Shown piece by piece: positions 21,239 through 52,333 of a DNA stretch of 64,000 nt. The stretch's first letter is position 1. Each line of letters starts with the position of its first letter. This DNA comes from a virus. The notes beneath the pieces were generated by a model. It worked only from the letters and a program-made list of their open reading frames with translations. It made no database searches and was not told where the DNA came from. The translations under genes and the position numbers were made by a program. The DNA lies in the IMG/VR virus record IMGVR_UViG_3300005617_000117, positions 38,815 through 102,814 of that record; one strand, written 5' to 3'.

Positions 21239-21274
21239 AGACGCAGGAAACGAACGCCTGCGTCTCTTTTATTT
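21239..21274 (+). terminator. Intrinsic terminator
   Basis: AGACGCAGG-AAACGAACG-CCTGCGTCT is a perfect 9-bp stem, followed by CTTTTATTT. Confidence 0.75.
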
Positions 21275-21288
21275 CAAGGTCTTATTTA

Positions 21289-26664: not shown

Positions 26665-26667
26665 GTT

Positions 26668-27270: not shown

Positions 27271-27535
27271 AGAACTGTTTGAAGTTATTAAGAATGCAGA
27301 GGCAGAGTTAAAGAAGATTCGGGATAAGTGCAAGCACAAAAAGACATTCGAAGGGAATTGGTCGGATGGTCCCGGACGTATAACGCACGCAAACATTTGT
27401 TTTTCTTGCCATAACTTTGTGTCTGTTACTGGTAAATTTCCAGATATGCCAGAGTTTCATGACGGTGGATGGAAACAATCGAACATTACTTTGCAAGATC
27501 CAAAACGTGGCGATTGGTTTGAGGCTCCAGAATGA
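27254..27535 (+). CDS. Hypothetical protein (CxH...CxxC)
   Basis: 93 aa ORF coupled to its neighbours. Confidence 0.55.
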   Translation: MLKRVKELFEVIKNAEAELKKIRDKCKHKKTFEGNWSDGPGRITHANICFSCHNFVSVTGKFPDMPEFHDGGWKQSNITLQDPKRGDWFEAPE

Positions 27536-28422
27536 AGATCCTAGTAAGTTATCGCGGTGCCCCACGTATTCGCGGATGGGAAACGGGGGCTTTAGTCGCC
27601 AGGGCATTACGCCATTCTGGTAACGAAGTAGATGAATATGCCAAGATTTACGAGAGTGATGCGTGGCTATTCGCCCACAACGACGTATTCTCAAATGAAT
27701 ACGATCTCCATCTTTTTATGGAATGTAATGACGGCGATAGACAATATCTTGAGCTAAAACATATTAATGCGAAGCGTCGAGCAGCTTGGTTATTCGATGT
27801 AGCCATGAATCCTCAAGGCTATAAAGAACTAGTACAATATATGGAGTTCGACCATTGCTATTGTGCTAACCTAGATTTTCTCAGCCAATTTGGTCGCCCA
27901 TCAACATATTTGCCTTACGGCTGCGACAAGGAATTCTTTTATAGACCACTCGATACACCCAAGACTATTGATGTATGTCTTGTGGGATCTGATAGACCAG
28001 AACGCCAGGAACTGATAAAGACCCTTATTAAGAACGGCGTTAATGCCCAACTTATTTCTGGAGTATTTAAAGAAGACTATATTAATACGCTTGCGGCAAG
28101 CAAAATAGTTATTAACGACATTGCTGGCGGTGGAACCAATCTTCTCTCAATGAGAACTTTTGAGGCTCCTGCCGCCGGAGCACTTTTGTTACAGGCTATG
28201 GTGCCTTCTATCTACCACGAATTCGAAGAGGCCGTGACTTGTGCCACTTTCGGTAACGAAACCGAATTAATTTCTAATTGCCTTTATTATTTAAAGAACG
28301 AAGACGAACGTAAACGAGTTGCTAAGAACGGACAATATTGGGCACTTAATCATCACTCTTATGAGGCCCGCGTATTTAAAATCATAATGGACACTATTCA
28401 TTGGAATCTTACGCATAAATGA
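27532..28422 (+). CDS. CgeB-like (Glyco_trans_1_2) glycosyltransferase
   Basis: YLPYGCD, KIVIN, MRTFEAPAAG, ERKRVAKNG....NHHSYEAR. Confidence 0.82.
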   Translation: MKILVSYRGAPRIRGWETGALVARALRHSGNEVDEYAKIYESDAWLFAHNDVFSNEYDLHLFMECNDGDRQYLELKHINAKRRAAWLFDVAMNPQGYKELVQYMEFDHCYCANLDFLSQFGRPSTYLPYGCDKEFFYRPLDTPKTIDVCLVGSDRPERQELIKTLIKNGVNAQLISGVFKEDYINTLAASKIVINDIAGGGTNLLSMRTFEAPAAGALLLQAMVPSIYHEFEEAVTCATFGNETELISNCLYYLKNEDERKRVAKNGQYWALNHHSYEARVFKIIMDTIHWNLTHK

Positions 28423-29108
28423 CTGCCGATACATTAATTTGCGTACATAGCACTACGCCTAAGAACGACTCACTTCTTCAGGAAGCGGTTCGTTCTGTAC
28501 TACGCTCTTCTGTTAGACCCAACAATCTTGTTATAGTATATGATGCCTGTTGGGAAGATACACAGAAGAATCTAGAAAGCATCTTTGATGATACGATCCA
28601 TTATTGGGACTATGTTGAATTAGGGTCAACACATTATATCCCAATTAGTAAGCCAATGAAACAGGGACTGGCAGTGGCCAAGAACTTTGGTCTTAAGTTT
28701 TGCACCAGCGATATCGTAACTTACTGTGATGCAGACGATACTTGGATAAGTAGTAAACTAGAACTCCAGAAGAAATTTATGGAAGATTCTGGAGTGGACT
28801 TTTGCTTTACTCAATCCTGGGATATTCGTTCTGATTATGCACTTGTCCCGAACTGTTTTCCAGTTGGCTACGCCAATACCCACGAAAAGATTGCCGAGAA
28901 GATATTTACTGAAAACTGCTTGTGCCACGGTTCGATGGCTGCAAAAAGATCGGTATTAGAGGCCCTCGGAGGGTATAATACAGACAGACGATTTTTAGGC
29001 CGCGAGGATTGGGAACTCTGGCAAAGAGCATTCCAGGCCGGTTATAAATTCTTCAATATCCCGGAGCGGCTTTATTGCTATCGCCTAGGTACAAGTGTGG
29101 AGAGATAA
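28419..29108 (+). CDS. GT2 glycosyltransferase
   Basis: GLAVAKNFG, YCDADD, KLELQ, GGY, EDWELW. Confidence 0.88.
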   Translation: MTADTLICVHSTTPKNDSLLQEAVRSVLRSSVRPNNLVIVYDACWEDTQKNLESIFDDTIHYWDYVELGSTHYIPISKPMKQGLAVAKNFGLKFCTSDIVTYCDADDTWISSKLELQKKFMEDSGVDFCFTQSWDIRSDYALVPNCFPVGYANTHEKIAEKIFTENCLCHGSMAAKRSVLEALGGYNTDRRFLGREDWELWQRAFQAGYKFFNIPERLYCYRLGTSVER

Positions 29109-29109
29109 G

Positions 29110-29397
29110 ATGTGCGTAGTTTCTATGATCGGCGATCATTTTGGGGATATGTGGAAGAATCAACCATTTATAGTTCCAGCGGTCGATCCCAATGGACAAG
29201 CAAAGATTGATTTCTCCCTTATTTCAAGGGCAGAATTTGAGGCTCTTAAAAAAGAGGTAGAGATACTAAAGGAATTGCTAGTAAAGGCGATTGCCTACGA
29301 TAAAGCGAACGGCGAACCTCACTGTGAGAAGCCAGAGAAAGTTAAGTTGCTCAAAGATATTGCAAAAGCATTAGGAGTAGAACTAAATGGAATTTAA
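29110..29397 (+). CDS. Hypothetical phage protein
   Basis: MCVVSMIGD...EFEALKKEV...EPHCE; coiled coil. Confidence 0.6.
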   Translation: MCVVSMIGDHFGDMWKNQPFIVPAVDPNGQAKIDFSLISRAEFEALKKEVEILKELLVKAIAYDKANGEPHCEKPEKVKLLKDIAKALGVELNGI

Positions 29398-29719
29398 GGA
29401 ATATCAGGAAAAGACTGCGACCACGGCTATTTATCCGGGGCGTGGTACTTTAACGGGCGTTCTATACACGGCCCTCGGCCTAGGAGAGACTGGCGAAGTG
29501 CAAGGTAAGGTGAAGAAGATTCTACGAGATTCTAATGGCGTTATTTCGCCCGAAACGGTTGTTGCCATTAAAGGAGAACTTGGCGACTGTCTTTGGTACA
29601 TTTCTCAACTTTGCAGCGAGCTAGGTCTTGATCTAGGCACAGTAGCCCAGGAGAATATCCAGAAACTAGCTGATCGTGCAGCCCGAGGCGTCCTTAAAGG
29701 TAATGGCGACAATAGATAA
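29387..29719 (+). CDS. MazG-like nucleoside triphosphate pyrophosphohydrolase
   Basis: LGLGETGEV, ELGDCLWY, N..KLADR...G.GDNR. Confidence 0.88.
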   Translation: MEFKEYQEKTATTAIYPGRGTLTGVLYTALGLGETGEVQGKVKKILRDSNGVISPETVVAIKGELGDCLWYISQLCSELGLDLGTVAQENIQKLADRAARGVLKGNGDNR

Positions 29720-29723
29720 TTTT

Positions 29724-30038
29724 ATGTATCCGGGTAAAGTACCTCTAAGCCAAGACGGCCACTTATTTAGTTACGTCGATGGCTATGTCTCGAACAACAA
29801 CAGTATTATTTGGGTAGATAATTTTGTTCTAACATCAACACTGAAAATTTATGATTATGGCCGTGGTCGGTCGGCAGTACATTTTTTGGTAGAAGATAAT
29901 ACTGGAAGAAAATATAACATGTTCCTGACGGATATGTTTCATGCCATTACTCACTTTAAAATTGAAGGCAGCGTAATTATGCATGATCGCTGGACAATCT
30001 GTAAGCGTGGTGCTAATTACGGTATTGAGGCAATATGA
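29724..30038 (+). CDS. Hypothetical protein
   Basis: GRSAVHF...KRGANYGI; probable ATG at 29724. Confidence 0.55.
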   Translation: MYPGKVPLSQDGHLFSYVDGYVSNNNSIIWVDNFVLTSTLKIYDYGRGRSAVHFLVEDNTGRKYNMFLTDMFHAITHFKIEGSVIMHDRWTICKRGANYGIEAI

Positions 30039-31006
30039 CTAGATTAATGTATGCTGGCCTTCTTTATGATTATGGGGAGCCCGGAAAAGGCTACTCCTAT
30101 GAACATAATAACATAGAAGCTGGCCTACAGGACTGTCAAGATCGTGGGCTTTTATTGCTCAATCGTTTCTATATTGACGCCCAAAGAATTGCTACGGGCC
30201 GCGAAGCATCCAACAAATGGTTAGAAGATCAGATTACTCAACGAAATTTTGACATACTATTCTACGTTGCTTTTAACGAGAGCCACGATATTCCGGCCCA
30301 TCTTTTAAATTTGTGCCGCGACTATGGTATTAAGACCGTCGAATGGGATTGCGATAGTTCCTGGCGATTCAATAATTGGATTCTTCCCAGGAAGGGTTTG
30401 TTTGATTATTTTATTACTACGCATTCCCAGGCTGTGCCTTGGTACGAAGCTAATGGAATGAAGGTTATTCATTCTCAGTGGGGTGGCTCGCCCTATTATA
30501 GAGCCGACGATGGAGCAAAGAAATATGACGTTACATTTATTGGACAAAAACACGGTATCCGACCGCAGATCATTAAAGCACTTACTGATCGCGGCATCAA
30601 AGTTGATTTGTTCGGCAATTATTGGGATGGCTATGATAACTGGCATGGCTACCTCACAGACTTCGGTACAATGCTCAAGGTCTTCCAGCAGTCTAAGGTC
30701 TGCCTCAACCTTTCCAATCCCTGGCACATCGGGACTCTCCCTCAAATCAAGGGAAGACATTTTGAGATCCCACAGTGTGGAGCTTTCCAGATTAGTACGC
30801 CCGCAGATGACCTCAACAATTATTTTGAGCCCGGGAAGGAAATTGTCATTTGCGACGATATTGAATCGCTTGCCGCCGCCTGTAAGAATTACCTACATGC
30901 AGACAGCGAGCGGGAGACTATTGCAAAAGCGGGTTATGAGCGGATGCAGCGGGAGCACCAATGGCACCATCGTTTTAGGGAGATACTCAAGTGCATTATC
31001 TCGTAA
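30035..31006 (+). CDS. CgeB-like glycosyltransferase
   Basis: YDVTFIG, SKVCLN, KGRHFEIPQCG, ERETIAKAG...EHQW.HRF. Confidence 0.85.
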   Translation: MTRLMYAGLLYDYGEPGKGYSYEHNNIEAGLQDCQDRGLLLLNRFYIDAQRIATGREASNKWLEDQITQRNFDILFYVAFNESHDIPAHLLNLCRDYGIKTVEWDCDSSWRFNNWILPRKGLFDYFITTHSQAVPWYEANGMKVIHSQWGGSPYYRADDGAKKYDVTFIGQKHGIRPQIIKALTDRGIKVDLFGNYWDGYDNWHGYLTDFGTMLKVFQQSKVCLNLSNPWHIGTLPQIKGRHFEIPQCGAFQISTPADDLNNYFEPGKEIVICDDIESLAAACKNYLHADSERETIAKAGYERMQREHQWHHRFREILKCIIS

Positions 31007-31662
31007 GTGAAATTCTAAAAGCAATTAAACAGGCTCCCGATGGATTAAAATTCGTTCTTCCAGATGAAGTTGCTGGTTGGTGTCCGACAGAATTGGGCTC
31101 CGTGCTCGGTACATTTTTGGCTTCCGGCCAAAAGAGATATCTCGAAGTCGGCACATTTTGTGGTCGTAGTTTAATTTATGCTCTTCGAACTAACCTAAAC
31201 ACTAAGGCAGATGTCATTGATCCATTATCAGATCAGATGATTGTTGGTACTAAGCCAGTTTATCAACATTGGGAAGCAAATGTTAAGGCGTACGAGATAC
31301 AAAATCAAATTACTCTGCACCGTTTTAAATTAGAAGAGTTCACTGGTAGTATAAATGATATACACCTTGCTTTCGTTGATGGCAATCATGACTCTGGACA
31401 TACGCTAGAAGCTTTACGAAAAGTCAAGCAATATCTAGCCAACGACGCAATTATTATTGTTGATGACTACGAGATTTATGGTGGCAACGAACAAACGCCA
31501 TACCCTGGTTATGACGTAGATATTAAGGCACCTGTCAAAACAGATGTCCATAAGTTTTTATCAGAAACGCCAGAAGTAACGGTTATCGCGTATACGCCTT
31601 GGCTGAATGGACAAATCTATATGTATTATAGAAAGAATACGACAGTCTGGAGACAGCAATGA
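30991..31662 (+). CDS. Class I SAM methyltransferase (Methyltransf_24-like)
   Basis: YLEVGTFCGRS, FVDGNH, IIVDDY. Confidence 0.82.
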   Translation: MHYLVSEILKAIKQAPDGLKFVLPDEVAGWCPTELGSVLGTFLASGQKRYLEVGTFCGRSLIYALRTNLNTKADVIDPLSDQMIVGTKPVYQHWEANVKAYEIQNQITLHRFKLEEFTGSINDIHLAFVDGNHDSGHTLEALRKVKQYLANDAIIIVDDYEIYGGNEQTPYPGYDVDIKAPVKTDVHKFLSETPEVTVIAYTPWLNGQIYMYYRKNTTVWRQQ

Positions 31663-32300
31663 CCAAATGGCGAGATCGTAAAGATAATCATGATTTTATG
31701 CAGCCAGAGCACGTACAGAATTTTCTACGTAATCACAACACTGGCGTTAATAACCTAGGAAGACTTTATCTAGCTTCTATCATTTCTCAGCACGGCCCAG
31801 GCACAACAGTTCTAGATGCGGCATGTGGCTCTTGTGTTAACTATGAGGTATTCAAGAATCATCATGTCCAGTGCAATTATACCGGCCTTGATCGAACAGA
31901 AAAGCTTCTTGAGGAAGCTAAGCGTCGTTACGGCAACGAGATTACGTTTGTTAAAGGATTTGTTCAGGAGATCCCGCTTCCAGAAGAAAGTCAGGACGTT
32001 GTTATTTTAAGACACATTCTAGAGCATTTAGAGGAAGGTTATGAAATAGCTATTAAAGAAGCACTTCGCGTAGCGAAGAAGGAAGTTGTTGTTGTCTTCT
32101 TTCTGGCACCACATGGCGGCCCACAGGATCAAATGTCAGAATCCCAACCAGACGAGAATGGTTGCACATATTGGTGGAATACATATAGCTGGTGCAAATT
32201 TACACAGTTTATTGCTTCGTTGGGCGTTCAACTACAAGTAAGAAGTGTCGCTACGCCTGGAGCCGCTCACTCCGACACTATCGTTAGGATAATTAAATAA
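31659..32300 (+). CDS. Class I SAM methyltransferase
   Basis: VLDAACG, YTGLD, DVVILRHILEH, EALRVAK. Confidence 0.85.
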   Translation: MTKWRDRKDNHDFMQPEHVQNFLRNHNTGVNNLGRLYLASIISQHGPGTTVLDAACGSCVNYEVFKNHHVQCNYTGLDRTEKLLEEAKRRYGNEITFVKGFVQEIPLPEESQDVVILRHILEHLEEGYEIAIKEALRVAKKEVVVVFFLAPHGGPQDQMSESQPDENGCTYWWNTYSWCKFTQFIASLGVQLQVRSVATPGAAHSDTIVRIIK

Positions 32301-32815
32301 TGGGCGTTAATCTTCTACAGTATCCTATCTCTAAATTTCCATTCTACGATTATGATGATTGTAATGGGATGGATAAGTTTCTATATGCCCCGAAGGATGG
32401 CGGTATTCCGCCAATTCCATCAGACGAAGAATGTTTGAATTTTGCTAATGTTTTGGCTTGTGATAAAGGGTTCGCAGAATTTCACGACAGATATACCAAA
32501 TATGTTTCCGCACTCTTCAATTCTGCCGGTTCATATCCCTATGAAATACCTGGGTTTAGAATCCATAGAAGAGATCATTTACCATTTTATTCTGGCATAC
32601 AAGAATCTAAGTATGTGATTTATACTCCATTAACCCCCATGTTCTATACAAACTCTATTGCTGTCGAAAGTCAGTATGGATTGGGTGACTACAATTTTAT
32701 AAATATGAAGATAGGCGACCTTTACATTCTTGATAAACAATACAGAAGAGTGATAGACAATTTTCACAATGGCATGGGACAATTATCTATCTGTATGATG
32801 AGTTTCTTAGGATAA
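32300..32815 (+). CDS. Degenerate StrG-like / double-stranded beta-helix protein
   Basis: PGFRIH and YTPLT...TNSIAVES..G.GDY pattern; no evident HxD...H metal triad. Confidence 0.4.
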   Translation: MGVNLLQYPISKFPFYDYDDCNGMDKFLYAPKDGGIPPIPSDEECLNFANVLACDKGFAEFHDRYTKYVSALFNSAGSYPYEIPGFRIHRRDHLPFYSGIQESKYVIYTPLTPMFYTNSIAVESQYGLGDYNFINMKIGDLYILDKQYRRVIDNFHNGMGQLSICMMSFLG

Positions 32816-33516
32816 TGTTTAAAACTTGGACGTTCGGAATTATTACTGATGGCAGCGACATGCCTCGGCTAGAGCAATGCATTAATTCGGCTTATCGAAA
32901 TTCGTCGCCGGGCGAACACATTATCGTAGTTGGAGGAACCAAAAAACCGCAAGGGAACGTTATCTGGATTCCGTTTGACGAAACAATCAAAGATAAATGG
33001 ATCACAAAGAAAAAGAATCTCATAGCTCAGTTGGCGGATTCCGCAGCCATCTGTTTTATGCACGATTATGTATCGCTAGAACAAACTTGGCGAATAGGGA
33101 TGGATCAAATTGGATGGCCCGATTTTACTCATCCAACATGCACTAACAAAATATTGAACGGTAATGGAAAACGATTTAGAGATTGGTGTGTAATATATAA
33201 CGACGCCTGGATGAATCCGCCTATTGACGACCAAAAGCCGCCCGAAAATATTGATGGCCATTTATTGCAATACGATAACTTTAATATGGGGCGTTGGCAG
33301 TATATGTCCGGGGCATATTTCTGTGCAACCAAATACGTTATGATGCATCACCCTCTCAACGAAGAAAGAGTTTGGGGACAGGGTGAAGATGTCGAATGGT
33401 GCAGAAAAGTGTACGCGACGTATGGTAGTAATGCGTTTTTGTTTAATCCATTTTCAGAAGTTAGGTTTCTCAAAATCAAGGAACAGGCTCCTTGGGAAAT
33501 GTTCTCACCACTATGA
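32815..33516 (+). CDS. GT-A-fold glycosyltransferase
   Basis: TFGIIT, WITKKKN, FMHDY, SGAYF, WGQGEDVEW. Confidence 0.7.
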   Translation: MFKTWTFGIITDGSDMPRLEQCINSAYRNSSPGEHIIVVGGTKKPQGNVIWIPFDETIKDKWITKKKNLIAQLADSAAICFMHDYVSLEQTWRIGMDQIGWPDFTHPTCTNKILNGNGKRFRDWCVIYNDAWMNPPIDDQKPPENIDGHLLQYDNFNMGRWQYMSGAYFCATKYVMMHHPLNEERVWGQGEDVEWCRKVYATYGSNAFLFNPFSEVRFLKIKEQAPWEMFSPL

Positions 33517-34220
33517 ACAAAGATAAATATGCGGACATGCAACGTAGACAATACGAGAGTGACGCCTCGCACTGGTCATTACAGAATATTGATAGTGTGG
33601 TGGGCTCTTTTCACGCCCACAATAATCACGCAGACTATGAAAACTTCCTATTAAATGGTTTTGATAAAGCCAACATGATTGCTCTAGACTTTGGCTGTGG
33701 CCCGGGTCGCAATCTAGCGAGGTTTGGGCCGCAATTTAAGCGGATGGATGGTGTAGATATCGCCCAAAACAATCTTAATAATGCCAAGGTTTGGCTCGAA
33801 CATAACAAGCTATGGAAGGATGATATTCGTCTCATTCTTTGTAACGGTACGGATTTAAGTGCCATCGAAAGCAATTACTACGACCTCGTGATGAGCACAA
33901 TTACGCTACAGCATATTTGCGTCCATTCTATTAGATTTGGTTATTTTCAGGAATTTTTCCGAGTTCTTAAGCCGGGTGGATGGATTACCCTACAGATGGG
34001 TTATGGTCCCAAGGCAGATGCACGACAGAAGGCAGAATATAATCAAGACTATTTTGATGCCGAGGGAACAAATGGTTGTGCCGATACAATGGTTACTTCA
34101 CCAGATCAATTATTAATAGACCTTACTGTTATTGGATTTAAAAACTTTCACCACGATATTCGACCAGTTGGGCCGGGTGACAAACATCCCAATTGGATAT
34201 TCTTTAGGGCACAGAAATGA
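33513..34220 (+). CDS. Class I SAM methyltransferase
   Basis: ALDFGCGPGR, DGVDI, TLQHI, RVLKPGG. Confidence 0.9.
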   Translation: MNKDKYADMQRRQYESDASHWSLQNIDSVVGSFHAHNNHADYENFLLNGFDKANMIALDFGCGPGRNLARFGPQFKRMDGVDIAQNNLNNAKVWLEHNKLWKDDIRLILCNGTDLSAIESNYYDLVMSTITLQHICVHSIRFGYFQEFFRVLKPGGWITLQMGYGPKADARQKAEYNQDYFDAEGTNGCADTMVTSPDQLLIDLTVIGFKNFHHDIRPVGPGDKHPNWIFFRAQK

Positions 34221-34867
34221 TTAGAGCAATCCTATATGATTTAGATGGTGTCCTAGTTGATGCCGTCGATATTCATAAGCGAGCCTTTAATGCCGCTCTT
34301 ACGACTGTTACCGGCAAACCATTAACAGACGAAGAGCATCTAAAAGATTTTAATGGACTACCAACAAAAAAGAAATTAGAAATGTTGATTGCTCGTCGTA
34401 AAATAACTCCAGTAATGGTGCCGTTTATTGAACGTCTTAAACAAGAAATGACGATTGCCCAAATTAATGAACTACTAAAAACAGATCATCACAAAACCAG
34501 ACTTCATAGATGGGCAAAGATGTCAGGAATCAAAATTGGCTGTGTAACAAACTCAATTCGTGAGACGGCCGAATTAATGCTAAAGAATACTGGCCAACTT
34601 AAATATATGAAATTAGTTATCACTAATCAGGATGTAGATGAGCCAAAGCCAAGTCCAGAAGGTTATTTTAAAGCAATGGCCATGTTAGGAGTTAAGCCAG
34701 AAAACACTTTAATAGTTGAAGATTCTGAGAAGGGTGTTAGTGCCGCTAAGAAAACTGGTGCCCACCTTCTAGTTGCAAGATCCTGTAAAGAAGTTAATAT
34801 AGACTCTATTAAGGATAAAATCATTGAAAGCAGCTTTAGTTCTGTCTGGTCAGCCGCGTTGTCTTGA
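34217..34867 (+). CDS. HAD-superfamily phosphatase
   Basis: DLDGVLVD, VTNS, KPSPEGY, VEDS..G. Confidence 0.9.
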   Translation: MIRAILYDLDGVLVDAVDIHKRAFNAALTTVTGKPLTDEEHLKDFNGLPTKKKLEMLIARRKITPVMVPFIERLKQEMTIAQINELLKTDHHKTRLHRWAKMSGIKIGCVTNSIRETAELMLKNTGQLKYMKLVITNQDVDEPKPSPEGYFKAMAMLGVKPENTLIVEDSEKGVSAAKKTGAHLLVARSCKEVNIDSIKDKIIESSFSSVWSAALS

Positions 34868-35537
34868 TGAGTGCTTTGATTCGCTTAAGCATTTTATTAT
34901 AGACCCATTGCAGACCGATATCTTTTTTCATTTCTGGAACACTTCGTTTCTTCCTTTTACGGATAATGTCACGAAGGTTCTTTATGGGATGGAGACGATA
35001 CCGCAGTGGAAGGCTTTCGATGGGGATTATGCCGCTAAATACATGGCTTTACTTAAGCCAAAGCGATTTATTGTACAACCACAGGTTGCATTAAATTTTG
35101 ACTATTATGCCAAGTCCTGCACACACGCCAATAGCAAGATGCAGGCAAAAGCATATATTCATGTTCTCAGCATGTTCTATTCCATTGGTATGGCACATCA
35201 ATGTATGATGGAATGGATGGAAAAGACTAATACAAATTACGATTTAATTATACGATGCAGAACCGATGCAAAATTTTGGAAGACGCCCGATCTAGATGGC
35301 CTAGAATCAGACAATATCCTTATTCCAGAGAATGATTGTTATGGCGGACTTAATGACCAATTTGCGATTACTAATAACTGGAAGATTATGCACGCTTATG
35401 CAACATGTCTAGATAATATCCAGACGCTCTTTGATGCTGGTACGAATTTTCATCCAGAAACAATTCTCAGGGATCATTTAAAATCGCATAATATACCTGT
35501 CAAGTTTATTCCCCAAAGCTATGGATTGATAAGATGA
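34824..35537 (+). CDS. Putative glycan-modifying transferase (SGQPR family)
   Basis: ALVLSGQPR, SMFYS, YDLIIRCRTD, NDQFA, HPE; TTG start. Confidence 0.55.
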   Translation: MKAALVLSGQPRCLDECFDSLKHFIIDPLQTDIFFHFWNTSFLPFTDNVTKVLYGMETIPQWKAFDGDYAAKYMALLKPKRFIVQPQVALNFDYYAKSCTHANSKMQAKAYIHVLSMFYSIGMAHQCMMEWMEKTNTNYDLIIRCRTDAKFWKTPDLDGLESDNILIPENDCYGGLNDQFAITNNWKIMHAYATCLDNIQTLFDAGTNFHPETILRDHLKSHNIPVKFIPQSYGLIR

Positions 35538-36274
35538 AACTACTCGTTCCTATGTCCGGTCGCGGACAGCGATTTAAAGATAAAGGTTACACGTTCCCAA
35601 AGCCATTAATAGATGTGAATGGCAAGCCTATGATAGAGGTTGTTCTTAATAACTTGCCCGTGGCAGAAGAGTATATCTTTATTGTTCAAAAAGAGCACGA
35701 AGATCAGTACGGATTAAGCAAGATGCTGAGTAGACTTACCAATGGTAGGTCTTTTTGCTTTTTTACTGATGGTGTGACGGAAGGTGCTGCTTGTAGTGCT
35801 TTGCTCGCACGCAAACGCCTGCTCAATGATGGCCCACTTTTAATTGCAAATTCAGATCAATTCGTTGAATATAGCTTGGGCAATTTTAATCTCGTAAAAA
35901 GCATTGCACAACGAGATAGTGATCTAGTGCCGCCATATGCTATGGCAGGCATGATATTTACATTTGAAGCTTCCCATCCAAAATGGAGCTTCGTGAAAAT
36001 GGATAATTTTCATATTACCCAGGTTGCAGAAAAGAACCCAATCTCTAATTGGGCTACATGTGGCATTTATTATTGGTCCCGTGCAGCAGATTTTGTACAT
36101 TCTTCCGAAGAAATGATCGCCGCAAATGATCGCGTTAACGGCGAATTCTATATTGCACCTTCATTTAATTATCTTATTAAACAGGGCAAATGGATCGCCC
36201 CATTTTTCGTGGATAAAATGCACGGACTCGGTACTCCAGAAGACCTAGAAAACTATTTGAGCAATCATTCATGA
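35534..36274 (+). CDS. Sugar-phosphate nucleotidyltransferase
   Basis: PMSGRGQRF...PKPLI, TEGAA, NSDQ, AEK, NGEFY, LGTPEDL. Confidence 0.85.
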   Translation: MKLLVPMSGRGQRFKDKGYTFPKPLIDVNGKPMIEVVLNNLPVAEEYIFIVQKEHEDQYGLSKMLSRLTNGRSFCFFTDGVTEGAACSALLARKRLLNDGPLLIANSDQFVEYSLGNFNLVKSIAQRDSDLVPPYAMAGMIFTFEASHPKWSFVKMDNFHITQVAEKNPISNWATCGIYYWSRAADFVHSSEEMIAANDRVNGEFYIAPSFNYLIKQGKWIAPFFVDKMHGLGTPEDLENYLSNHS

Positions 36275-37203
36275 GTAGACGAATTCTAATTACTGGCGGC
36301 TACGGGTTTCTCGGCAAGAACCTAATTAGTAATTGGCCCAACAAAGATGATCGTTTGCTCACACCATCGCACCGGGAAGTTGATTTTACCTCTTTTCAAG
36401 AGTCTGGACACTTCTTCTTTAAGTATGGGCAACATCTAGATTCGGTTGTTCATCTGGCAGCCTTATGCGGCGGCATTGGAGCCAATCAGAAAAGCCCGGC
36501 AGATTTTATCTATAAGAATCTCATGATGGGGGCGAACATTCTGGAAATGTCCCATCGTTTTAATGTACCTAAAGTTATTTTGTTAGGGACCGTATGCCAG
36601 TATCCCAAATTTACTCCTGCCCCATTTAAAGAAGATGATATTTGGAACGGCTATCCAGAAGAAACAAACGCACCATATGGTATTGCGAAAAAGACAATCA
36701 TGGAAATGGGATTGGCTTATAGACGCCAATATGGCATGAACATTATCACTTTAATTCCAACCAATCTCGTTGGCGAATTCGATCATTTTGAAGAGGATAG
36801 ATCACATGTTATACCTGCTCTGGTCCGAAAATTTGGTATGGCGGTACGTCAAAGCCTTCCTAACGTTACCGTTTGGGGTGATGGAACAGCTAGTCGTGAA
36901 TTCTTGGATGCTCGTGATGCTGCTCGTGGGATATATTTAGCACACGAAAAATATAATGGAGACTTGCCAGTTAATCTAGGCAACAATAAAGAAGTAACAA
37001 TTAAAGAGCTTGTCAATACGATTGCAACATTAATGAATTATAATGGCAATATTATTTGGGATAAAACGCAGCCGAATGGCCAGCCTCGTCGTTGTTTAGA
37101 TGTTTCTAGGGCCAAAGAACTATTTGACTTTGAGGCACAAATACCACTTGAAGAATCTCTGAAATTAGTAATTAAATATGCAAAGGAACATGGATATGCT
37201 TAA
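36271..37203 (+). CDS. fcl: GDP-L-fucose synthase-family SDR (GDP-4-keto-6-deoxy-sugar epimerase/reductase)
   Basis: TGGYGFLG, LAALCGGIGAN, GTVCQYPK, YGIAK, SHVIPAL, WGDG..SREF, PNGQPRR. Confidence 0.9.
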   Translation: MSRRILITGGYGFLGKNLISNWPNKDDRLLTPSHREVDFTSFQESGHFFFKYGQHLDSVVHLAALCGGIGANQKSPADFIYKNLMMGANILEMSHRFNVPKVILLGTVCQYPKFTPAPFKEDDIWNGYPEETNAPYGIAKKTIMEMGLAYRRQYGMNIITLIPTNLVGEFDHFEEDRSHVIPALVRKFGMAVRQSLPNVTVWGDGTASREFLDARDAARGIYLAHEKYNGDLPVNLGNNKEVTIKELVNTIATLMNYNGNIIWDKTQPNGQPRRCLDVSRAKELFDFEAQIPLEESLKLVIKYAKEHGYA

Positions 37204-38209
37204 GGCTGTTATTACGGGGGTATCTGGTCAAGACGGCTTCTATCTTAGCAAGCTATTGCTTGAAAAAGGATATCAGGTTATTGGGGTTAGAAGACGCACA
37301 TCATTGCCTACAGATCGTAGGCTAGTCCCATTAAAAGGAACTCCCAACTTTATTTTGGCAGATGGCGACGTTACTGACCAGGGTAGTATAGAACAAATCG
37401 TGGGCGACTTTAAGCCTAGCGAGTTCTATCATTTAGCTGCCCAGTCTCACGTACAGCGATCATGGGATTATCCCGTGATGACGGCACAGACCACCGGCCT
37501 GGGCACTTTAAATTGTCTTGAAGCAATTCGCCGAGTTCATCCTTCTTGTAGATTCTATTTTGCAGGGTCTTCTGAGCAATTTGGTAATACGGCCGAAACT
37601 CAGGGACGCCTAGATGAAGAGTCGGCGATGTCTCCCGAATCTCCATATGCTGCCGCTAAAGTATTTGGCTACAATATAACCAAGGTTTATAGACGCTCCT
37701 ATGGAATGTTTACCGCCTGCGGCATTCTATTTAATCATGAAAGTCCAATGCGGGGCGAAGAATTCGTTACTAGAAAAATTACGATGGGCCTTGCCAGAAT
37801 TAAGCACGGCCTACAGTCCGTATTAACTCTTGGCAATATGGACGCAAAGCGAGATTGGGGATTTGCTGGCGACTATGTAGAAGCAATGTGGAAAATGCTT
37901 CAAATTGATAGTCCAATGGATTTCGTGGTTGGAACCGGCGAAACGCACAGCGTTCGTGAATTTGTTGAGCACGCTTGTAGTTATTTTGGACTTAATAGTG
38001 CCGACATTATTAGAAGCGATCCAAAACTGTTTCGTCCCAAAGATGTGAATGTTTTAATTGCCAATCCAAAGCGAGCGGCTAAGCTTTTAGATTGGAAAGC
38101 AAAAACCGGTTTCGTTGATCTGGTAAATTCAATGTGCCTTTACGATCTATATAATACTTCTCCGAATCCTGCTGATAGAGCATCGGCCGAAGAATTGTTC
38201 ATGCAATAA
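37196..38209 (+). CDS. gmd: GDP-mannose 4,6-dehydratase
   Basis: ITGVSGQDG, LAAQSHV, SSE, SPYAAAK, GILFNHESP.RG..FVTRKI, RDWGFA.DYV. Confidence 0.95.
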   Translation: MLKAVITGVSGQDGFYLSKLLLEKGYQVIGVRRRTSLPTDRRLVPLKGTPNFILADGDVTDQGSIEQIVGDFKPSEFYHLAAQSHVQRSWDYPVMTAQTTGLGTLNCLEAIRRVHPSCRFYFAGSSEQFGNTAETQGRLDEESAMSPESPYAAAKVFGYNITKVYRRSYGMFTACGILFNHESPMRGEEFVTRKITMGLARIKHGLQSVLTLGNMDAKRDWGFAGDYVEAMWKMLQIDSPMDFVVGTGETHSVREFVEHACSYFGLNSADIIRSDPKLFRPKDVNVLIANPKRAAKLLDWKAKTGFVDLVNSMCLYDLYNTSPNPADRASAEELFMQ

Positions 38210-48280: not shown

Positions 48281-48365
48281 AGGCGGTATCTAGTCTAGGT
48301 AGCGTCTGGTGAATTAAAATTCCTTGATTTTCTCCGGCCGCACCGTCTTTAGTAGGAGAAAGTCA
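48272..48365 (+). ncRNA. Candidate structured RNA leader, copy 2, with SD-sequestering hairpin
   Basis: P1 TATTTAGAC (48272-48280)/GTCTAGGTA (48293-48301); AGG-CGGTA-TCT (48281-48291); TGATTTTCTCC (48325-48335) pairs with GGAGAAAGTCA (48355-48365), covering the RBS and the A of the ATG. Confidence 0.5.
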
Positions 48366-48853
48366 TGCCGAGAGAAACTTCCGCCCTAATGGGGTCTGGA
48401 ACAGTCCCATATACTGCGGCCATTCTACATACAACGCTTGGTGGTACATTTGCTGGTACGTTAAGTGCCGGTGCGTCCGATGGACGCGGCGTTCGTACGG
48501 GAACGCAAGTCGTTGTTGCCAATCCAGAAGACCTTGTGTCCGTGCCAGTCATCCGTTGCTCAGGCATTACTGTTGGCACAGGGGCCGCTGTGAATATTTT
48601 AAGTCAATCAAGCCATGACGCTATTTTAAAGCGTGGTCGAATGGCTGAAATCGAGAATCTTGGCCCCGGCGATCTATTTATTGGTGGAACGGCCAATGTC
48701 ACTGCTGGCCTAGCTGGTGAATCTGGATTTAAGCTATTGGCTCCAGCGACCAACATTCCCCCACAAAGAGTCAAGATTCCGATTATGAATGGTGCCGACA
48801 TATGGGCCATCGCTCTAACGAGTGCTGCGGACGTAAGAATTCTGCTTTACTAA
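48365..48853 (+). CDS. Putative small virion protein (paralog of 48882)
   Basis: Shared GSGT.P, DGR, RTGT, NPED, N.GPG.(L/M)(F/Y)IG..NVT and D.RIL blocks. Confidence 0.55.
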   Translation: MPRETSALMGSGTVPYTAAILHTTLGGTFAGTLSAGASDGRGVRTGTQVVVANPEDLVSVPVIRCSGITVGTGAAVNILSQSSHDAILKRGRMAEIENLGPGDLFIGGTANVTAGLAGESGFKLLAPATNIPPQRVKIPIMNGADIWAIALTSAADVRILLY

Positions 48854-48881
48854 GTCGCATTCCAACTAAAGGAGGGCGGCT

Positions 48882-49328
48882 ATGGCAAAAGAATACGTTG
48901 CCGTAATAGGCTCTGGTACAATTCCAAATATTGGCCCGTTCGTTCCGGCCATGTCTGGTGCATTTCCTGACGGACGTTATCCTCAAGCTTTTCATCAAGG
49001 GAAAGCGTTTGGCCGTACAGGAACAGGTGCGATTATTCTCAACCCCGAAGATTTTTCAGTCTTCTTGGGTGTTAAATCGCAATCTATTCTAGTTGGTGGC
49101 ACAGCCGTTCCTTTACCCACTTCTCCGCTAGAGAATCGTCGGGCACTTGCTCTGCACAATAATGGCCCAGGAATAATGTATATTGGTGATATCAACGTTA
49201 CTACTCTGACAGGATACCCACTCGCAGTAAATGAGAAGATAGGATTAGATATCACCGGTAACGACAATGTTATTATATATAGCGTATCGGATAGTAGTTC
49301 TGATGCACGAATATTAGAATTGGCATAA
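48882..49328 (+). CDS. Putative small virion protein (paralog of 48365)
   Basis: Same blocks as 48365; AAGGAGG RBS. Confidence 0.55.
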   Translation: MAKEYVAVIGSGTIPNIGPFVPAMSGAFPDGRYPQAFHQGKAFGRTGTGAIILNPEDFSVFLGVKSQSILVGGTAVPLPTSPLENRRALALHNNGPGIMYIGDINVTTLTGYPLAVNEKIGLDITGNDNVIIYSVSDSSSDARILELA

Positions 49329-49331
49329 CTC

Positions 49332-50375
49332 ATGAGTATTGGTTTAGGTGGTCTAGTATCAGTAGGTGGTGGAACTGGCGGAAGCAGCGGAGGCTCCGGC
49401 AGCGGCATTACATCTATTAATGGCCAGCAAGGACCAGCAATTGTCGAGGTCGGTGTTAACGGAATTGTTGTTACTGCCGCAGGAAATCAAATAGTTTTTA
49501 ATGCGGCGGCCCTTTCTGGATTAATTGCTACAGCAACGGGCAGCGGAATCCGCGAAATTAACTCGCAAACGGGCCCCGCGATCCAAGTCAGCGGTATTAA
49601 CGGTATTGGCGTATCGCAGCCTCGCAGCAATTTCATTCTTATTGATTATGTTCCCCTTTCAGGGATCTTTGATATCAATGGAGAAGATGGCCCTCATATC
49701 GTCGTGGATGGCGTCAACGGTGCCTCTATAATCACCGGGACGGATCGATTGACTGTAGATGTGTCCGCTCTATCGGGTTTAATACAGACATTTACTGGCA
49801 GTGGCATCACAAGAATTAATGACCAACAGGGTCCAGAAATTCAAATCAGTGGTATTAATGGAATAGAAGTTACTCAGCCGCGAAGCAATTTCATATTGCT
49901 AGATGGGGCGGCCATTTCTGGAACAACTGGCGGCGGCGGCATGAACGCCTGTTACACCACATCATTTACTGGTGTGCTAGAACAGACATTCACTCACGCA
50001 CTTGGAACAAAAGCTATTGTTGTACAGATTCAAGATGAGAACGATGAATTTATAGAGGCCGACTTAATAACCTCTACCGATATCAATAATGTCACTATTA
50101 GGTTTAATCAACCACAATCCGGTAGATTGACTGTAGTTTCCTGTGGCGGGACTATAGCTACCAGTGGTGTAACTAAGTTTGCCGCATCGTTCTTAAATGT
50201 TACAAGCGGTCAATTTACGCACGGTTTCAGTACCAGGGACGTTCTAATTCAGGTCTATGACACTAATGGACCGCCAAGACAGCTTATGCCAGACGACATA
50301 ATACTAGATACCTTAGATACCATTAGTTTATTATTTAATGCGGCACAGTCGGGCAGAGTTGTGATTATGGGCTAA
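49332..50375 (+). CDS. Putative fibre/decoration protein with internal repeats
   Basis: Four SGI..IN...GP.I...G.NG repeats; two C-terminal TH......(V/I)Q..D...D......I.FN..QSGR domains; 15 SG dipeptides. Confidence 0.6.
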   Translation: MSIGLGGLVSVGGGTGGSSGGSGSGITSINGQQGPAIVEVGVNGIVVTAAGNQIVFNAAALSGLIATATGSGIREINSQTGPAIQVSGINGIGVSQPRSNFILIDYVPLSGIFDINGEDGPHIVVDGVNGASIITGTDRLTVDVSALSGLIQTFTGSGITRINDQQGPEIQISGINGIEVTQPRSNFILLDGAAISGTTGGGGMNACYTTSFTGVLEQTFTHALGTKAIVVQIQDENDEFIEADLITSTDINNVTIRFNQPQSGRLTVVSCGGTIATSGVTKFAASFLNVTSGQFTHGFSTRDVLIQVYDTNGPPRQLMPDDIILDTLDTISLLFNAAQSGRVVIMG

Positions 50376-50391
50376 TTTATGGGGACGATAC

Positions 50392-51159
50392 ATGACTAAA
50401 ATTAATGGCGATCTTATACCGTCAGCATCCGGTATAGCCAATCTTGGCGTTAATGGTAATGCAGTAGGGGCATACGACATAGCCTCGATTGCTCCGTTCG
50501 CCCACATTCACATGAACTCTGGAGTGTTTCATGATACTCTGGCGGGCGAAAGCGGCGTACTTCGTTATAGCCGTGCGGCCAGTGCGTTTCAGGTATCAGT
50601 CGATGGTGGTAAGACATTCAATAACATTTCTGCCGGAGCAGTAACGTCGATTGGTGTAATTGGCGGTGTAGACTTAACTGGTGCAGTCGATCTTGCGACC
50701 GTTGCCAGCGGCTTCATGACAATTCAGGATACTGGCGGGGCGAGCCCACTAGTTTTCTCCGTAGATACCCTTGGATTATCAGGACTGTTTAGATTCCCCA
50801 CTCAGGGCTTCAATGGTCGTGTTGTAAACGCCCTTACTGATACTAATGGCACGGAAGCACAAGGAGTTATTCAGGTCGCCGGTGTATCTGGTATTATCGC
50901 CGATCTTGTTGGGCAAGTTTTAAGTATTGGCCTTGGTAATAACGTTCCAAAATCGTTTGCTCAAACATTCGTATCTTCAAGTCCTTGGACGGTAACGCAC
51001 AATCTTAATAGTTTGAATGTCATCGTACAGACATTCGATGCTACGTCAGCTAGACTAGCTATTGAGCCAGACGATATTGAAATAACTGATGCTAATACAG
51101 TAACAATTAGATGGAATCAGGCACAGGCTGGACTCGTGGTGGTATTTGCAGCATTCTAA
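50392..51159 (+). CDS. Putative fibre/decoration protein
   Basis: C-terminal WTVTHNLNS..VIVQTFD domain related to those of 49332; 6 SG dipeptides. Confidence 0.6.
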   Translation: MTKINGDLIPSASGIANLGVNGNAVGAYDIASIAPFAHIHMNSGVFHDTLAGESGVLRYSRAASAFQVSVDGGKTFNNISAGAVTSIGVIGGVDLTGAVDLATVASGFMTIQDTGGASPLVFSVDTLGLSGLFRFPTQGFNGRVVNALTDTNGTEAQGVIQVAGVSGIIADLVGQVLSIGLGNNVPKSFAQTFVSSSPWTVTHNLNSLNVIVQTFDATSARLAIEPDDIEITDANTVTIRWNQAQAGLVVVFAAF

Positions 51160-51169
51160 TAGGTGATAG

Positions 51170-52333
51170 ATGAATAGATTAAATGGATATCTTGACAGCT
51201 TTGCTAGTCAAGCTGGTTACAGACAACACGGTGGAATTTGGAGCGGTATTTCCGTTGGAGATACTTTTATCCAATCAAGTGGTACTATTGGCGTTAGCGG
51301 TTATCGCAATGTCGAAATTCAGGTATTGGGCGGCAGCGGCGTATTAAAGTATGTTGGTGGGGCATATGAAGGTTGGCAAGTCAAGATGGCCAATCTTTCT
51401 CCAAATGCTGGATCTGGACAAAACGGATTTTTCCCTGTTGCTGTTTCTGGTATTTATAGCTTACAAGACGCTTATTATGCCAATCCTGATATAATGCTAG
51501 GGTCAAAAGCAACTTTCCGTGGCAACGATCAAATGACTATTACGGCCAATGATCGTAAGCTGATCTTTATCCAAGGACAAAGATCCCCAATAAATATCTC
51601 TGGTGCGTTAAAGGTTCCGATTGTTGGTGGCGTGAACTTGAATCTTACTGGCGATATTGCCATGTGCCATCACGCACAAGTAATGCAACCTAACTCATTT
51701 AGCTCGCCAGCAGATGATGCCGAAGCAGATGCAAGAGCACTTGGCCCAGGAACATTAACTGTCAATACTGGATCTGGTATTATTAATCTTTCAACCGGAT
51801 CTGGCATTGCCATGATTACTATGAAAGCCGACACACAATTACCATATCTATTAGATAACTGGGCCAGAATCGGCATGTCTGGTATGGCATCACAAGACGC
51901 CATGTTCGTGCCCAATATTATTGGCTCTGGTATTACATTCATGAATACTGGTATGTACTTGGTGAACTACAGTATTTCATTGCAGAAAGTGTTAAGCACT
52001 ACATCAAGAACTATTGCTATTAGGGCGGTCTTAAGAGATAAAGGTGGAGAAGGTGAGCAAAATAATGCCGGTGGAGCGTTAAATGGTTCGACTAAACTGG
52101 CTATTCCCGGCAGCATTGCATATGGAACCGTTACGAACGTTACGACGTTACCATTCTTTACTGTTAATAGTACATTCTTAGTTAATGCTACTGCTGGACA
52201 ATTCTTGGGGTTTGAGGCGGCTCAGGCCGGTACGGGTGCCGTCGCTGGTCAAACCGTTCTTGCCACTGCATCAGGCAGCAGGGCTATAGTTCAATACATT
52301 GGTCCAAGACGCACGTTTCCCGTTCTCGACTAA
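51170..52333 (+). CDS. Putative fibre protein with BclA/C1q-like C-terminal beta domain
   Basis: GITF.NTG.YLVNYSI...IPGS...LVN..AG pattern; 12 SG dipeptides. Confidence 0.55.
   Translation: MNRLNGYLDSFASQAGYRQHGGIWSGISVGDTFIQSSGTIGVSGYRNVEIQVLGGSGVLKYVGGAYEGWQVKMANLSPNAGSGQNGFFPVAVSGIYSLQDAYYANPDIMLGSKATFRGNDQMTITANDRKLIFIQGQRSPINISGALKVPIVGGVNLNLTGDIAMCHHAQVMQPNSFSSPADDAEADARALGPGTLTVNTGSGIINLSTGSGIAMITMKADTQLPYLLDNWARIGMSGMASQDAMFVPNIIGSGITFMNTGMYLVNYSISLQKVLSTTSRTIAIRAVLRDKGGEGEQNNAGGALNGSTKLAIPGSIAYGTVTNVTTLPFFTVNSTFLVNATAGQFLGFEAAQAGTGAVAGQTVLATASGSRAIVQYIGPRRTFPVLD

What the first reader, a model, noticed from the sequence alone, without database searches (positions are those of the whole stretch)
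48365..52333. Ser-Gly motif enriched in virion proteins: candidate acceptor site for phage-encoded glycosylation
Seen (manual count): about 63 SG dipeptides in ~2700 aa across the 8 structural ORFs (1-4439 and 48365-52333), e.g. 15/347, 12/387, 6/218. DnaE, NrdJ and the S/G-rich 46134 protein together have about 7 in ~2430 aa. In several proteins SG exceeds GS (6 vs 0 in 50392, 6 vs 1 in 3783, 15 vs 5 in 49332), and SG is mostly followed by I/V/L/F/T. Known: Ser-Gly is the glycosaminoglycan attachment motif of animal proteoglycans, and some mycobacteriophages glycosylate their virions with their own glycosyltransferases. Inference: the motif marks O-glycosylation sites used by the glycan island, producing a glycan-coated virion.
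Basis: partly seen in the sequence, partly recalled or inferred. Interest (0 to 1): 0.8.

Follow-up and report, generated by a model that had tools for sequence, protein, structure and literature searches.

The report
Ser-Gly motif on phage tail fibres
The tail-tip and fibre proteins of this uncultured large phage carry about 2.5 times too many, unusually conserved Ser-Gly pairs, and the phage also encodes many soluble sugar-transferring enzymes, so the serines may be sugar attachment sites, but nothing yet shows that they are more than a lineage-specific way of building tight turns.

Summary
The five ORFs at 48365-52333 hold 38 SG against 14.4 expected (z=7.0, 0 of 5000 shuffles); GS is at expectation. 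Across all 14 distal-tail ORFs of the 102.8-kb genome, SG is 141 against 57 (z=11) and the next dipeptide reaches z=2.9. The rest of the genome has 115 against 114.

The signal is Ser-specific: TG, AG, DG and NG are not raised. Many codons encode it. It survives masking of repeats and paralogues (116 against 47.5). The Ser is invariant at 70% of SG sites, against 27% for other Ser. T4 tail proteins (1.05) and GT-free phages sharing the fibre domain lack it. Lambda's tail tip shows a milder excess (1.67).

The glycosylation reading is plausible but unproven. Every reachable clade member carries soluble GTs, including one in the packaging operon, but they are all kin, which makes one evolutionary event. 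The sites are position-fixed, Gly is as conserved as Ser, some sites are generic fold features, the capsid lacks the motif, and one independent GT-bearing lineage is negative. The animal proteoglycan analogy fails.

The scan has noted the same pattern before in this genome and in at least 36 others, with the same verdict. Mass spectrometry is needed.

The parts
48365..48853 (+). 162-aa small virion protein, first gene of the fibre module. SG 3 against 1.4 expected. N-terminal GSGT(V/L)P motif conserved in clade orthologues. Paralogue of the next ORF.
   Evidence: 32% identity to 48882 product; motif conserved in G001, G003, G005; nearest Atlas clusters are viral hypothetical proteins; a PRD1 P5 spike N-terminal family at 0.89 is a lead only
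48882..49328 (+). 148-aa paralogue of the preceding ORF. SG 2 against 1.3. Same N-terminal IGSGTIP motif.
49332..50375 (+). 347-aa modular fibre: G/S-rich N-terminus, two shaft repeats of the form SGI..ING..GP.I...G.NGI.V, then two Ig-like beta-sandwich domains ending in FN..QSGRvvI. SG 15 against 4.7, GS 5.
   Evidence: phrog_16122 virion structural protein, phrog_21918; 497 representative homologues; Ig-like domains pLDDT >90, shaft about 50
50392..51159 (+). 255-aa fibre protein with an N-terminal NGDLIP..SG...LGV motif and one C-terminal Ig-like domain of the same family. SG 6 against 2.6, GS 0.
51170..52333 (+). 387-aa fibre with an SG-punctuated N-terminal shaft (residues 1-210) and a C-terminal TNF/C1q-like jelly-roll head (about 211-387), probably the receptor-binding tip. 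SG 12 against 4.4. Nine SG columns are fixed in at least 13 of 15 homologues at 36-80% identity.
   Evidence: (Foldseek E 1e-8 to 1e-5 to TNF-family ligands, C1q-like domains, cyanophage A-1(L)/A4 fibre parts, phi812 knob, ExsFA/BxpB), 72, 82
1..4439 (+). Three further SG-rich distal-tail ORFs: 1-1731 is the C-terminal part of a 1095-aa protein, followed by 1735-3651 and 3783-4439. SG 8, 12 and 6 against 4.2, 5.8 and 2.2. They are the end of the post-tape-measure tail module that starts upstream of the window.
   Evidence: tape measure lies just upstream, at genome 23833-28896
15699..38209 (+). Glycan island: GT1/GT4-like, GT2 and CgeB-like (PF13524) transferases, FkbM and other SAM methyltransferases, HAD phosphatase, nucleotidyltransferase, NAD-epimerase and GDP-mannose 4,6-dehydratase. 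No predicted transmembrane segment in any ORF. Candidate enzymes for the proposed modification; the link is inferred, not shown.
   Evidence: Pfam; Kyte-Doolittle scan

Best explanation
The pattern (A/G/V/P)-Ser-Gly-(I/V/L/T) is a selected motif. It sits in the tight turn just before a beta-strand, or at a kink within a long strand, in the trimeric beta-rich tail-tip, baseplate and fibre proteins of this phage clade. My preferred reading is that the Ser is the acceptor for O-glycosylation by the phage's own soluble glycosyltransferases. These would act in the cytoplasm on folded or assembling tail parts, without a lipid carrier, much as autotransporter heptosyltransferases decorate regularly spaced Ser residues on a beta-helix. 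The Gly and the following aliphatic residue would provide the exposed-turn and strand-start geometry the enzyme recognises.

Shown: the enrichment, its Ser-specificity, its conservation, its restriction to distal tail proteins, the presence and solubility of the GTs, and their conservation across the clade.

Inferred: that any sugar is attached, which enzyme initiates, and what the glycan does (for example shielding the fibres, or adhesion).
For: SG is 141 against 57.1 (z=11) in the tail set and 115 against 114.4 elsewhere; GS is 57 against 57.1. It is Ser-specific: TG 0.83, AG 0.81, DG 1.13, PG 0.83, and NG 1.33, the same as the rest of the genome. A generic turn preference would raise N/D/T/P-Gly as well. 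Ser in SG is invariant in 70% of sites across clade orthologues, against 27% for other Ser, 35% for N in NG and 20% for T in TG. In non-tail ORFs it is only 42%. The commonest replacement is Thr. The excess is spread over at least 8 non-homologous proteins with diverse local contexts. T4 baseplate and fibres give 1.05. Forty-seven large ORFs of GT-free phages give 1.37, with GS 1.20 and no +1 preference. Four complete GT-free phages sharing the fibre domain have 0-1 significant ORFs, against 6 in each clade genome. One SG site in the Ig-like domain is a clade-specific gain (7/16 against 0/53). All island ORFs lack TM segments. A CgeB-like GT sits between the packaging genes and is conserved in at least 14 clade contigs. 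No thymidylate-synthase/hydroxymethylase homologue is present that would suggest the GTs work on DNA. Precedent for patterned Ser glycosylation on a beta-solenoid by a soluble GT-B enzyme: PMC4358343.
Against: There is no chemical evidence. The co-occurrence with GTs is one phylogenetic event, because every genome with the motif is kin (45-74% mean identity) and no GT-free kin was reachable. The sites are position-fixed with little turnover, and Gly is at least as conserved as Ser, as expected for a structural turn. The QSGR site of the Ig-like domain is generic: Gly is near-invariant, S/A/T interchange, and SG occurs in 14/44 domains of GT-free phages. Lambda's tail tip has a directional SG excess of 1.67 without known glycosylation. 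The only independent lineage with a homologous CgeB-like GT and tail genes on the same contig (G031) shows no directional excess: SG 1.2, TG 1.66, GS 1.64. The major head protein and tape measure lack the motif, unlike the known mycobacteriophage case, where the capsid and tail tube are modified (as cited in PMC12619734). Exposure of the Ser could not be computed, and 18 of 27 sites lie in shaft regions that the monomer models do not resolve.
Confidence: 0.45

Rival explanations
1. Purely structural, lineage-specific building habit. Ser-Gly forms the tight turn or beta-bulge that starts each short strand in the trimeric shafts, solenoid repeats and beta-sandwiches of this clade's tail appendages. 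It was inherited by descent within each protein family and is unrelated to the GT island, which would serve another purpose such as host surface or small-molecule glycans.
For: Sites are position-fixed: nine core columns in at least 13/15 homologues at 36-80% identity, with 0-3 non-core sites. Gly in SG is 81% invariant. In the confident parts of the models SG lies in the turn directly before a strand or at a kink in a long ladder. A stretch of the 1557-aa protein has SG at a strict 14-residue period. The QSGR site is shared with GT-free phages and tolerates S/A/T. Lambda's tail tip has SG 1.67 with a +1 hydrophobic preference of 1.6x and no GTs. Across 150 diverse homologues of the fibre family SG is 1.82. 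An antibody CH1 segment shows the same SG-hydrophobic strand starts.
Against: This does not explain why only Ser is used: T, N, D, P and A before Gly are not enriched. It does not explain why Ser, normally a poorly conserved residue, is the best-conserved class apart from Gly. It does not explain why at least 8 non-homologous proteins of one virion converge on the same extended motif while T4 and more than 20 GT-free phages do not.
Confidence: 0.4
2. The motif is recognised by some other trans-acting factor: a different Ser modification (acylation, phosphorylation) or a fibre-assembly chaperone that docks on SG-aliphatic turns.
For: The same arguments for a shared trans-acting cause apply: Ser-specificity and convergence across non-homologous proteins. 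N-terminal GSGT(I/L/V)P-type motifs conserved in three different proteins look like docking peptides.
Against: No kinase, acyltransferase or known fibre chaperone was identified next to the modules. The only abundant candidate enzymes in the genome are GTs and methyltransferases.
Confidence: 0.08
3. Statistical or compositional artefact: S/G-rich composition, low-complexity linkers, internal repeats, paralogy, or a DNA-level motif.
For: A few GSGSG linkers exist at the N-terminus of the 49332 protein, and ORFs 49332/50392 and 48365/48882 are paralogous pairs.
Against: Within-protein shuffles give z=7-8 with 0/5000 reaching the observed count. GS is at expectation. Unique regions alone give 116 against 47.5. 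At least 21 codon pairs are used. The S/G-rich neighbour 46134 has 1 SG against 4.2 expected.
Confidence: 0.01

Closest known systems
Bacterial autotransporter heptosyltransferases (BAHT: TibC, AAH) acting on TibA/AIDA-I (PMC4358343)
   Same: A soluble cytoplasmic glycosyltransferase modifies many Ser residues that lie in a regular pattern on the surface turns of a beta-solenoid, with no lipid carrier. Here SG also sits at turns and strand starts, in one stretch at a strict 14-residue period.
   Different: No GT9/heptosyltransferase homologue is present in four clade genomes. The sugar pathway here is GDP-mannose-derived, not ADP-heptose. The substrates are phage tail proteins, not autotransporters. 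No modification has been shown here.
Virion glycosylation of mycobacteriophages by phage-encoded GTs (Freeman et al. 2023, known to me only as cited in PMC12619734; the paper itself is not held)
   Same: Phage-encoded glycosyltransferases would decorate the phage's own virion proteins in the cytoplasm.
   Different: There the glycans are on the C-termini of the capsid and tail-tube subunits. Here the candidate sites are internal Ser-Gly turns of distal tail, baseplate and fibre proteins, and the major head protein shows no excess. The GT complement here is far larger, with more than 12 GTs.
Chlorovirus (PBCV-1-type) autonomous capsid glycosylation
   Same: A virus-encoded set of soluble GTs with GDP-mannose dehydratase/epimerase and sugar methyltransferases, and no membrane export machinery.
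   Different: Chlorovirus glycans are N-linked to the major capsid protein (my own knowledge). Here the candidate acceptor is Ser in tail proteins of a tailed phage.
Ser-Gly xylosylation site of animal proteoglycans
   Same: Only the dipeptide itself.
   Different: Acidic flanks are depleted (0.66x), SGxG occurs at 5/141 sites, and there is no GT14/xylosyltransferase-like gene. The flanks here are small or aliphatic residues.
Glycine-containing tight turns and beta-bulges with Ser/Thr/Asn/Asp capping (ST- and Asx-turn type motifs)
   Same: The position is in the turn just before a strand or at a strand kink. Gly is nearly invariant. At the QSGR site of the Ig-like domain S/A/T interchange freely.
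   Different: Such motifs normally accept T, N and D as well. Here only Ser is enriched and it is strictly conserved.
CgeB-family (PF13524) transferases of Bacillus spore-surface maturation
   Same: Three ORFs of this phage match PF13524. In Bacillus the family is linked to glycosylation of a protein surface layer assembled inside the mother cell (my own knowledge). The fibre head also resembles the exosporium proteins ExsFA/BxpB in fold.
   Different: This is family-level similarity only. No substrate or sugar is known here.

Membership tests
Phage-encoded virion glycosylation (mycobacteriophage type) | Phage genome encodes glycosyltransferases expressed with or near morphogenesis genes | tested here: met
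   Pfam GT1, GT2 and PF13524 hits in window 15699-31006. A CgeB-like GT lies between the packaging genes at genome 3119-4051 and is conserved in the clade.
Phage-encoded virion glycosylation (mycobacteriophage type) | Glycans demonstrated on virion proteins | not testable with these tools
   Needs mass spectrometry or glycan staining of virions or co-expressed proteins.
Phage-encoded virion glycosylation (mycobacteriophage type) | Acceptor sites on C-terminal tails of the capsid and tail-tube subunits | tested here: not met
   The major head protein has SG 1 against 1.2 expected. The motif is internal and confined to post-tape-measure tail proteins and fibres.
BAHT (TibC/AAH) hyperglycosylation | GT9-related heptosyltransferase | tested here: not met
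   PF01075 has no match in G000, G001, G003 or G005, while control genomes do match.
BAHT (TibC/AAH) hyperglycosylation | ADP-heptose donor | tested here: not met
   The island encodes GDP-mannose 4,6-dehydratase, an NAD-epimerase and a nucleotidyltransferase. No heptose pathway gene was seen.
BAHT (TibC/AAH) hyperglycosylation | Ser acceptors patterned on surface turns of a beta-solenoid substrate | tested here: inconclusive
   SG lies before strands and at a 14-residue period in one shaft. However, the shafts are not resolved by the monomer models and exposure could not be computed.
Proteoglycan Ser-Gly xylosylation | Acidic residues flanking SG, often SGxG | tested here: not met
   The acidic fraction in the +-5 flanks is 0.058 against 0.088 background. 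SGxG occurs at 5 of 141 sites.
Proteoglycan Ser-Gly xylosylation | GT14-type xylosyltransferase | tested here: not met
   PF02485 has no match in four clade genomes.
Generic Gly turn / ST-turn structural motif | Located at a tight turn or bulge, with Gly structurally required | tested here: met
   (position). Gly in SG is 81% invariant. Gly is near-invariant at the QSGR site.
Generic Gly turn / ST-turn structural motif | The capping residue is interchangeable among S/T/N/D | tested here: not met
   TG 0.83, NG 1.33 (the same as the rest of the genome) and DG 1.13, against SG 2.47. Ser is invariant at 70% of sites. The exception is the QSGR site, where S/A/T interchange.
Phage DNA glycosyl-hypermodification (rival use of the GT island) | Hydroxymethyl-pyrimidine pathway (thymidylate-synthase-like hydroxymethylase or TET/JBP dioxygenase) | tested here: inconclusive
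   PF00303 is absent from G000, G001, G003 (96% complete) and G005. The PF12851 search matched nothing, including in the controls, so it is uninformative.

The most novel reading that the evidence does not exclude
A clade of uncultured 100-180 kb phages runs its own lipid-carrier-independent protein O-glycosylation system. The system uses a minimal Ser-Gly-aliphatic sequon at beta-turns to decorate specifically the tail tip, baseplate and receptor-binding fibres, not the capsid. This would make it the first phage glycosylation system with a recognisable sequon.
Probability: 0.4. Interest if true: 0.85.

Novelty: new variant of a known kind. Interest (0 to 1): 0.55.

Why it matters
If the serines are glycosylated, this would be a sequon-directed, phage-encoded protein glycosylation system aimed at the host-recognition apparatus. 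It would bear on how phages shield or tune their fibres, on host-range prediction from sequence, and on cytoplasmic glycoengineering with a very short tag. The motif would then let glycosylated phage proteins be predicted from sequence alone. If it is structural, it is still a clean example of a lineage-specific, Ser-specific turn rule in fibrous proteins. It would also be a caution that co-occurrence with GT islands within one clade is not evidence of a link.

Tried and rejected
- Composition alone is rejected by within-protein shuffles.
- A DNA-level motif is rejected: at least 21 codon pairs encode SG.
- Internal repeats and paralogy are rejected by masking. The local contexts are diverse, and the Ig-like domain occurs only in ORFs 49332 and 50392.
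- A generic turn preference is rejected, since only Ser is enriched.
- A general property of phage tail proteins is rejected for T4 and more than 20 GT-free phages, though lambda shows a milder version.
- The proteoglycan analogy and BAHT membership both fail.
- Cultured relatives: blastn and tblastn against 50,697 phage records found nothing.
- Solved homologues by sequence: none, only linker artefacts.
- GT-free kin: profile scans of viral, metagenome and genome contigs with three different tail proteins and one GT returned only clade members, all with GTs.
As a result, the 65.6-kb and 87.4-kb contigs that encode the 38-41%-identical homologues P0011, P0013 and P0015 could not be examined.
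- Independent-lineage test with distant CgeB-like GT homologues: five of six contigs lack tail genes, and the sixth (G031) is negative.
- Structure: the monomer AlphaFold models leave the fibre shafts at pLDDT about 30-55. The tools return no coordinates, so Ser exposure could not be measured.
- The Freeman et al. 2023 paper is not held.

Full report
**What is there**

The window is the last 64 kb of a 102,814-bp viral contig, CheckV about 66% complete. The genome runs as follows:
- packaging genes with an embedded CgeB-like GT (genome 3119-4051) and TerL (5945-7924);
- a probable portal;
- the major head protein (14210-15241);
- the tape measure (23833-28896);
- a block of large distal-tail ORFs that runs into the window (window 1-4439).

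After a replication and glycan region, a second small structural module lies at window 48365-52333. It holds:
- two small paralogous proteins (48365, 48882);
- a modular fibre with shaft repeats and two Ig-like domains (49332);
- a shorter fibre with one such domain (50392);
- a fibre whose C-terminal 175 residues fold as a TNF/C1q-like trimeric jelly roll (51170). Its matches include cyanophage fibre parts, the phi812 spike knob and Bacillus exosporium proteins.

**Check of the observation**

Pooled within-protein shuffles give the following:

| Set | SG observed | Shuffle mean | z | Shuffles reaching observed | GS observed |
|---|---|---|---|---|---|
| Five ORFs, 48365-52333 | 38 | 14.4 | 7.0 | 0/5000 | 16 (mean 14.5) |
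| Eight structural ORFs | 64 | 26.7 | 8.2 | 0/5000 | 29 (mean 26.7) |
| DnaE, NrdJ, 46134 | 7 | 11.0 | -1.3 | 4651/5000 | 13 (mean 11.1) |

Genome-wide, the excess covers the 14 ORFs that follow the tape measure plus the fibre module. There SG is 141 against 57.1 (z=11.1), the only strongly deviant dipeptide of 400, with the next at z=2.9. All other ORFs together have 115 against 114.4. The tape measure (4 against 7.8) and the major head protein (1 against 1.2) lack the excess.

At least 21 codon pairs encode the SG sites. Masking all segments with a detectable paralogue or repeat leaves 116 against 47.5. The local contexts are diverse. The extended pattern is (A/G/V/P)-S-G-(I/V/L/F/T), with both flanks about 1.8-fold over background.

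**Properties that bear on mechanism**

1. Ser-specificity. TG is 0.83, AG 0.81, PG 0.83 and DG 1.13. NG is 1.33, the same as in the rest of the genome.

2. Conservation. Across orthologues in three clade genomes (mean 60% identity), Ser in SG is invariant at 70% of sites, against 27% for other Ser. Gly in SG is invariant at 81%, against 67% for other Gly. N in NG is 35% and T in TG 20%. In non-tail ORFs, Ser in SG is only 42%. Thr is the commonest replacement. In 15 homologues of the 51170 protein at 36-80% identity, seven SG pairs are invariant, which is 14 of 47 invariant columns. Nine SG columns are fixed in at least 13 of 15 sequences, with only 0-3 non-core sites each. The sites are therefore position-fixed, not turning over.

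3. Position. In the confident parts of two AlphaFold models, SG lies in the turn directly before a strand (S211, S237, S253 of 51170) or at a kink in a long ladder (S263, S292, S340 of 49332; S368 of 51170). Eighteen of the 27 sites lie in shaft regions that a monomer model cannot resolve. One stretch of the 1557-aa upstream protein has SG every 14 residues.

4. The Ig-like fibre domain allows a direct comparison with GT-free phages. Its QSGR site is generic: Gly is near-invariant, S/A/T interchange, and SG occurs in 8/16 clade domains against 14/44 GT-free domains. Its TSG site is a clade-specific gain, 7/16 against 0/53, with an aromatic or aliphatic residue in place of Gly elsewhere.

**Controls**

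| Protein set | SG O/E | GS O/E | Notes |
|---|---|---|---|
| T4 baseplate, short and long fibres | 1.05 | 1.08 | |
| Lambda tail tip | 1.67 | 1.00 | DG 1.74; +1 hydrophobic 1.6x; no -1 preference |
| 47 large ORFs near the fibre gene of GT-free phages | 1.37 | 1.20 | no +1 preference |
| This phage's tail set | 2.47 | 1.00 | +1 1.79x, -1 1.84x |

Lambda shows that a milder directional excess can exist without known glycosylation. Four complete GT-free phages have 0-1 ORFs with p<0.01, and in those SG is about equal to GS. G000, G001, G003 and G005 each have six such ORFs, with SG well above GS.

**The glycosyltransferases**

Window 15699-38209 encodes GT1/GT4-like, GT2 and CgeB-like transferases, FkbM and other methyltransferases, a HAD phosphatase, a nucleotidyltransferase, an epimerase and GDP-mannose 4,6-dehydratase. 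None has a TM-like segment.

The clade comprises G001-G006, about ten further contigs found through the CgeB-like GT, and G033, G034 and G037 found through a tail protein. Every reachable member of useful size carries these GTs. No thymidylate-synthase-like gene is present in four clade genomes, which argues weakly against DNA hypermodification as the island's role.

**Why the link remains unproven**

All genomes that combine the motif and the GTs are kin, so the co-occurrence is one event. Scans with three tail proteins and one GT found no kin without GTs.

Distant homologues of the CgeB-like GT (31-39% identity) lie on T4-like fragments. Only one of them, G031, includes baseplate genes, and its tail block has SG 1.2, TG 1.66, GS 1.64 and GT 1.44. 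That is not a directional signal.

The animal proteoglycan analogy fails, and so does BAHT membership. BAHT remains the best mechanistic analogue.

**Verdict**

I give the glycosylation-sequon reading 0.45, because Ser-specificity, exceptional Ser conservation and convergence across non-homologous proteins all point to a use of the hydroxyl. I give a purely structural lineage habit 0.40, because the sites are position-fixed, Gly is co-conserved, some sites are generic, and lambda shows a milder version.

Earlier notes of this scan report the same pattern in the adjacent window of this genome and in at least 36 other genomes, with the same verdict. I treated these as leads only.

Noticed in passing
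window 48365-48420, 48882-48930, 1735-1770: The two small fibre-module paralogues begin with GSGT(I/L/V)P. The unrelated 638-aa tail protein begins with a related (A/Q)SG..PY form. The motifs are conserved in clade orthologues at 25-50% identity and may be docking peptides.
   Followed up: partly
window 50392-50460 and 51170-51240: The fibre proteins start with an NGDL.P..SG...LGV-type motif. Related L.P......D.GS....W motifs occur in distant homologues of the fibre family (alignment A2).
   Followed up: no
window 46134-48269: A 711-aa S/G-rich protein with a signal-peptide-like N-terminus and a weak DUF3604 match, directly upstream of the fibre module. It is SG-poor (1 against 4.2 expected, GS 7), which makes it a useful internal negative control. 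Its function is unknown.
   Followed up: partly
window 52345-52680: A 111-aa ORF right after the fibres with an N-terminal TM-like segment and no SG. It may be a holin-like or membrane protein.
   Followed up: no
genome 36362-36533 (upstream of the window, in the 1557-aa ORF 32585-37258): SG recurs at a strict 14-residue period (residues 1260, 1274, 1288, 1302, 1316; again at 1427 and 1441). This looks like a solenoid or beta-spiral-like shaft with one SG per rung.
   Followed up: partly
window 23255-24337: An IMP dehydrogenase/GMP reductase-family gene (Pfam E 6e-98) sits in the middle of the glycosyltransferase island.
   Followed up: no
window 15699-17510: A 603-aa GT1-like protein carries a C-terminal DUF4214 domain. 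This extra domain could serve substrate recognition.
   Followed up: no
window 11422-14676 and 42013-43926: The phage encodes its own DNA polymerase III alpha (PHP, NTPase, finger and HhH domains) and a class-II-like ribonucleotide reductase.
   Followed up: no
L149 (phage lambda 10542-21973): Lambda's tail-tip proteins (H, J, orf-314 and others) have a directional SG excess of 1.67 (37 against 22) with GS 1.00 and DG 1.74. I am not aware that this has been remarked on.
   Followed up: partly
L142-L143 (G031): A T4-like phage fragment carries a glycan-gene cluster (CgeB-like GTs, GMD/epimerase homologues) directly upstream of baseplate-wedge genes, but has no directional SG or TG excess.
   Followed up: partly
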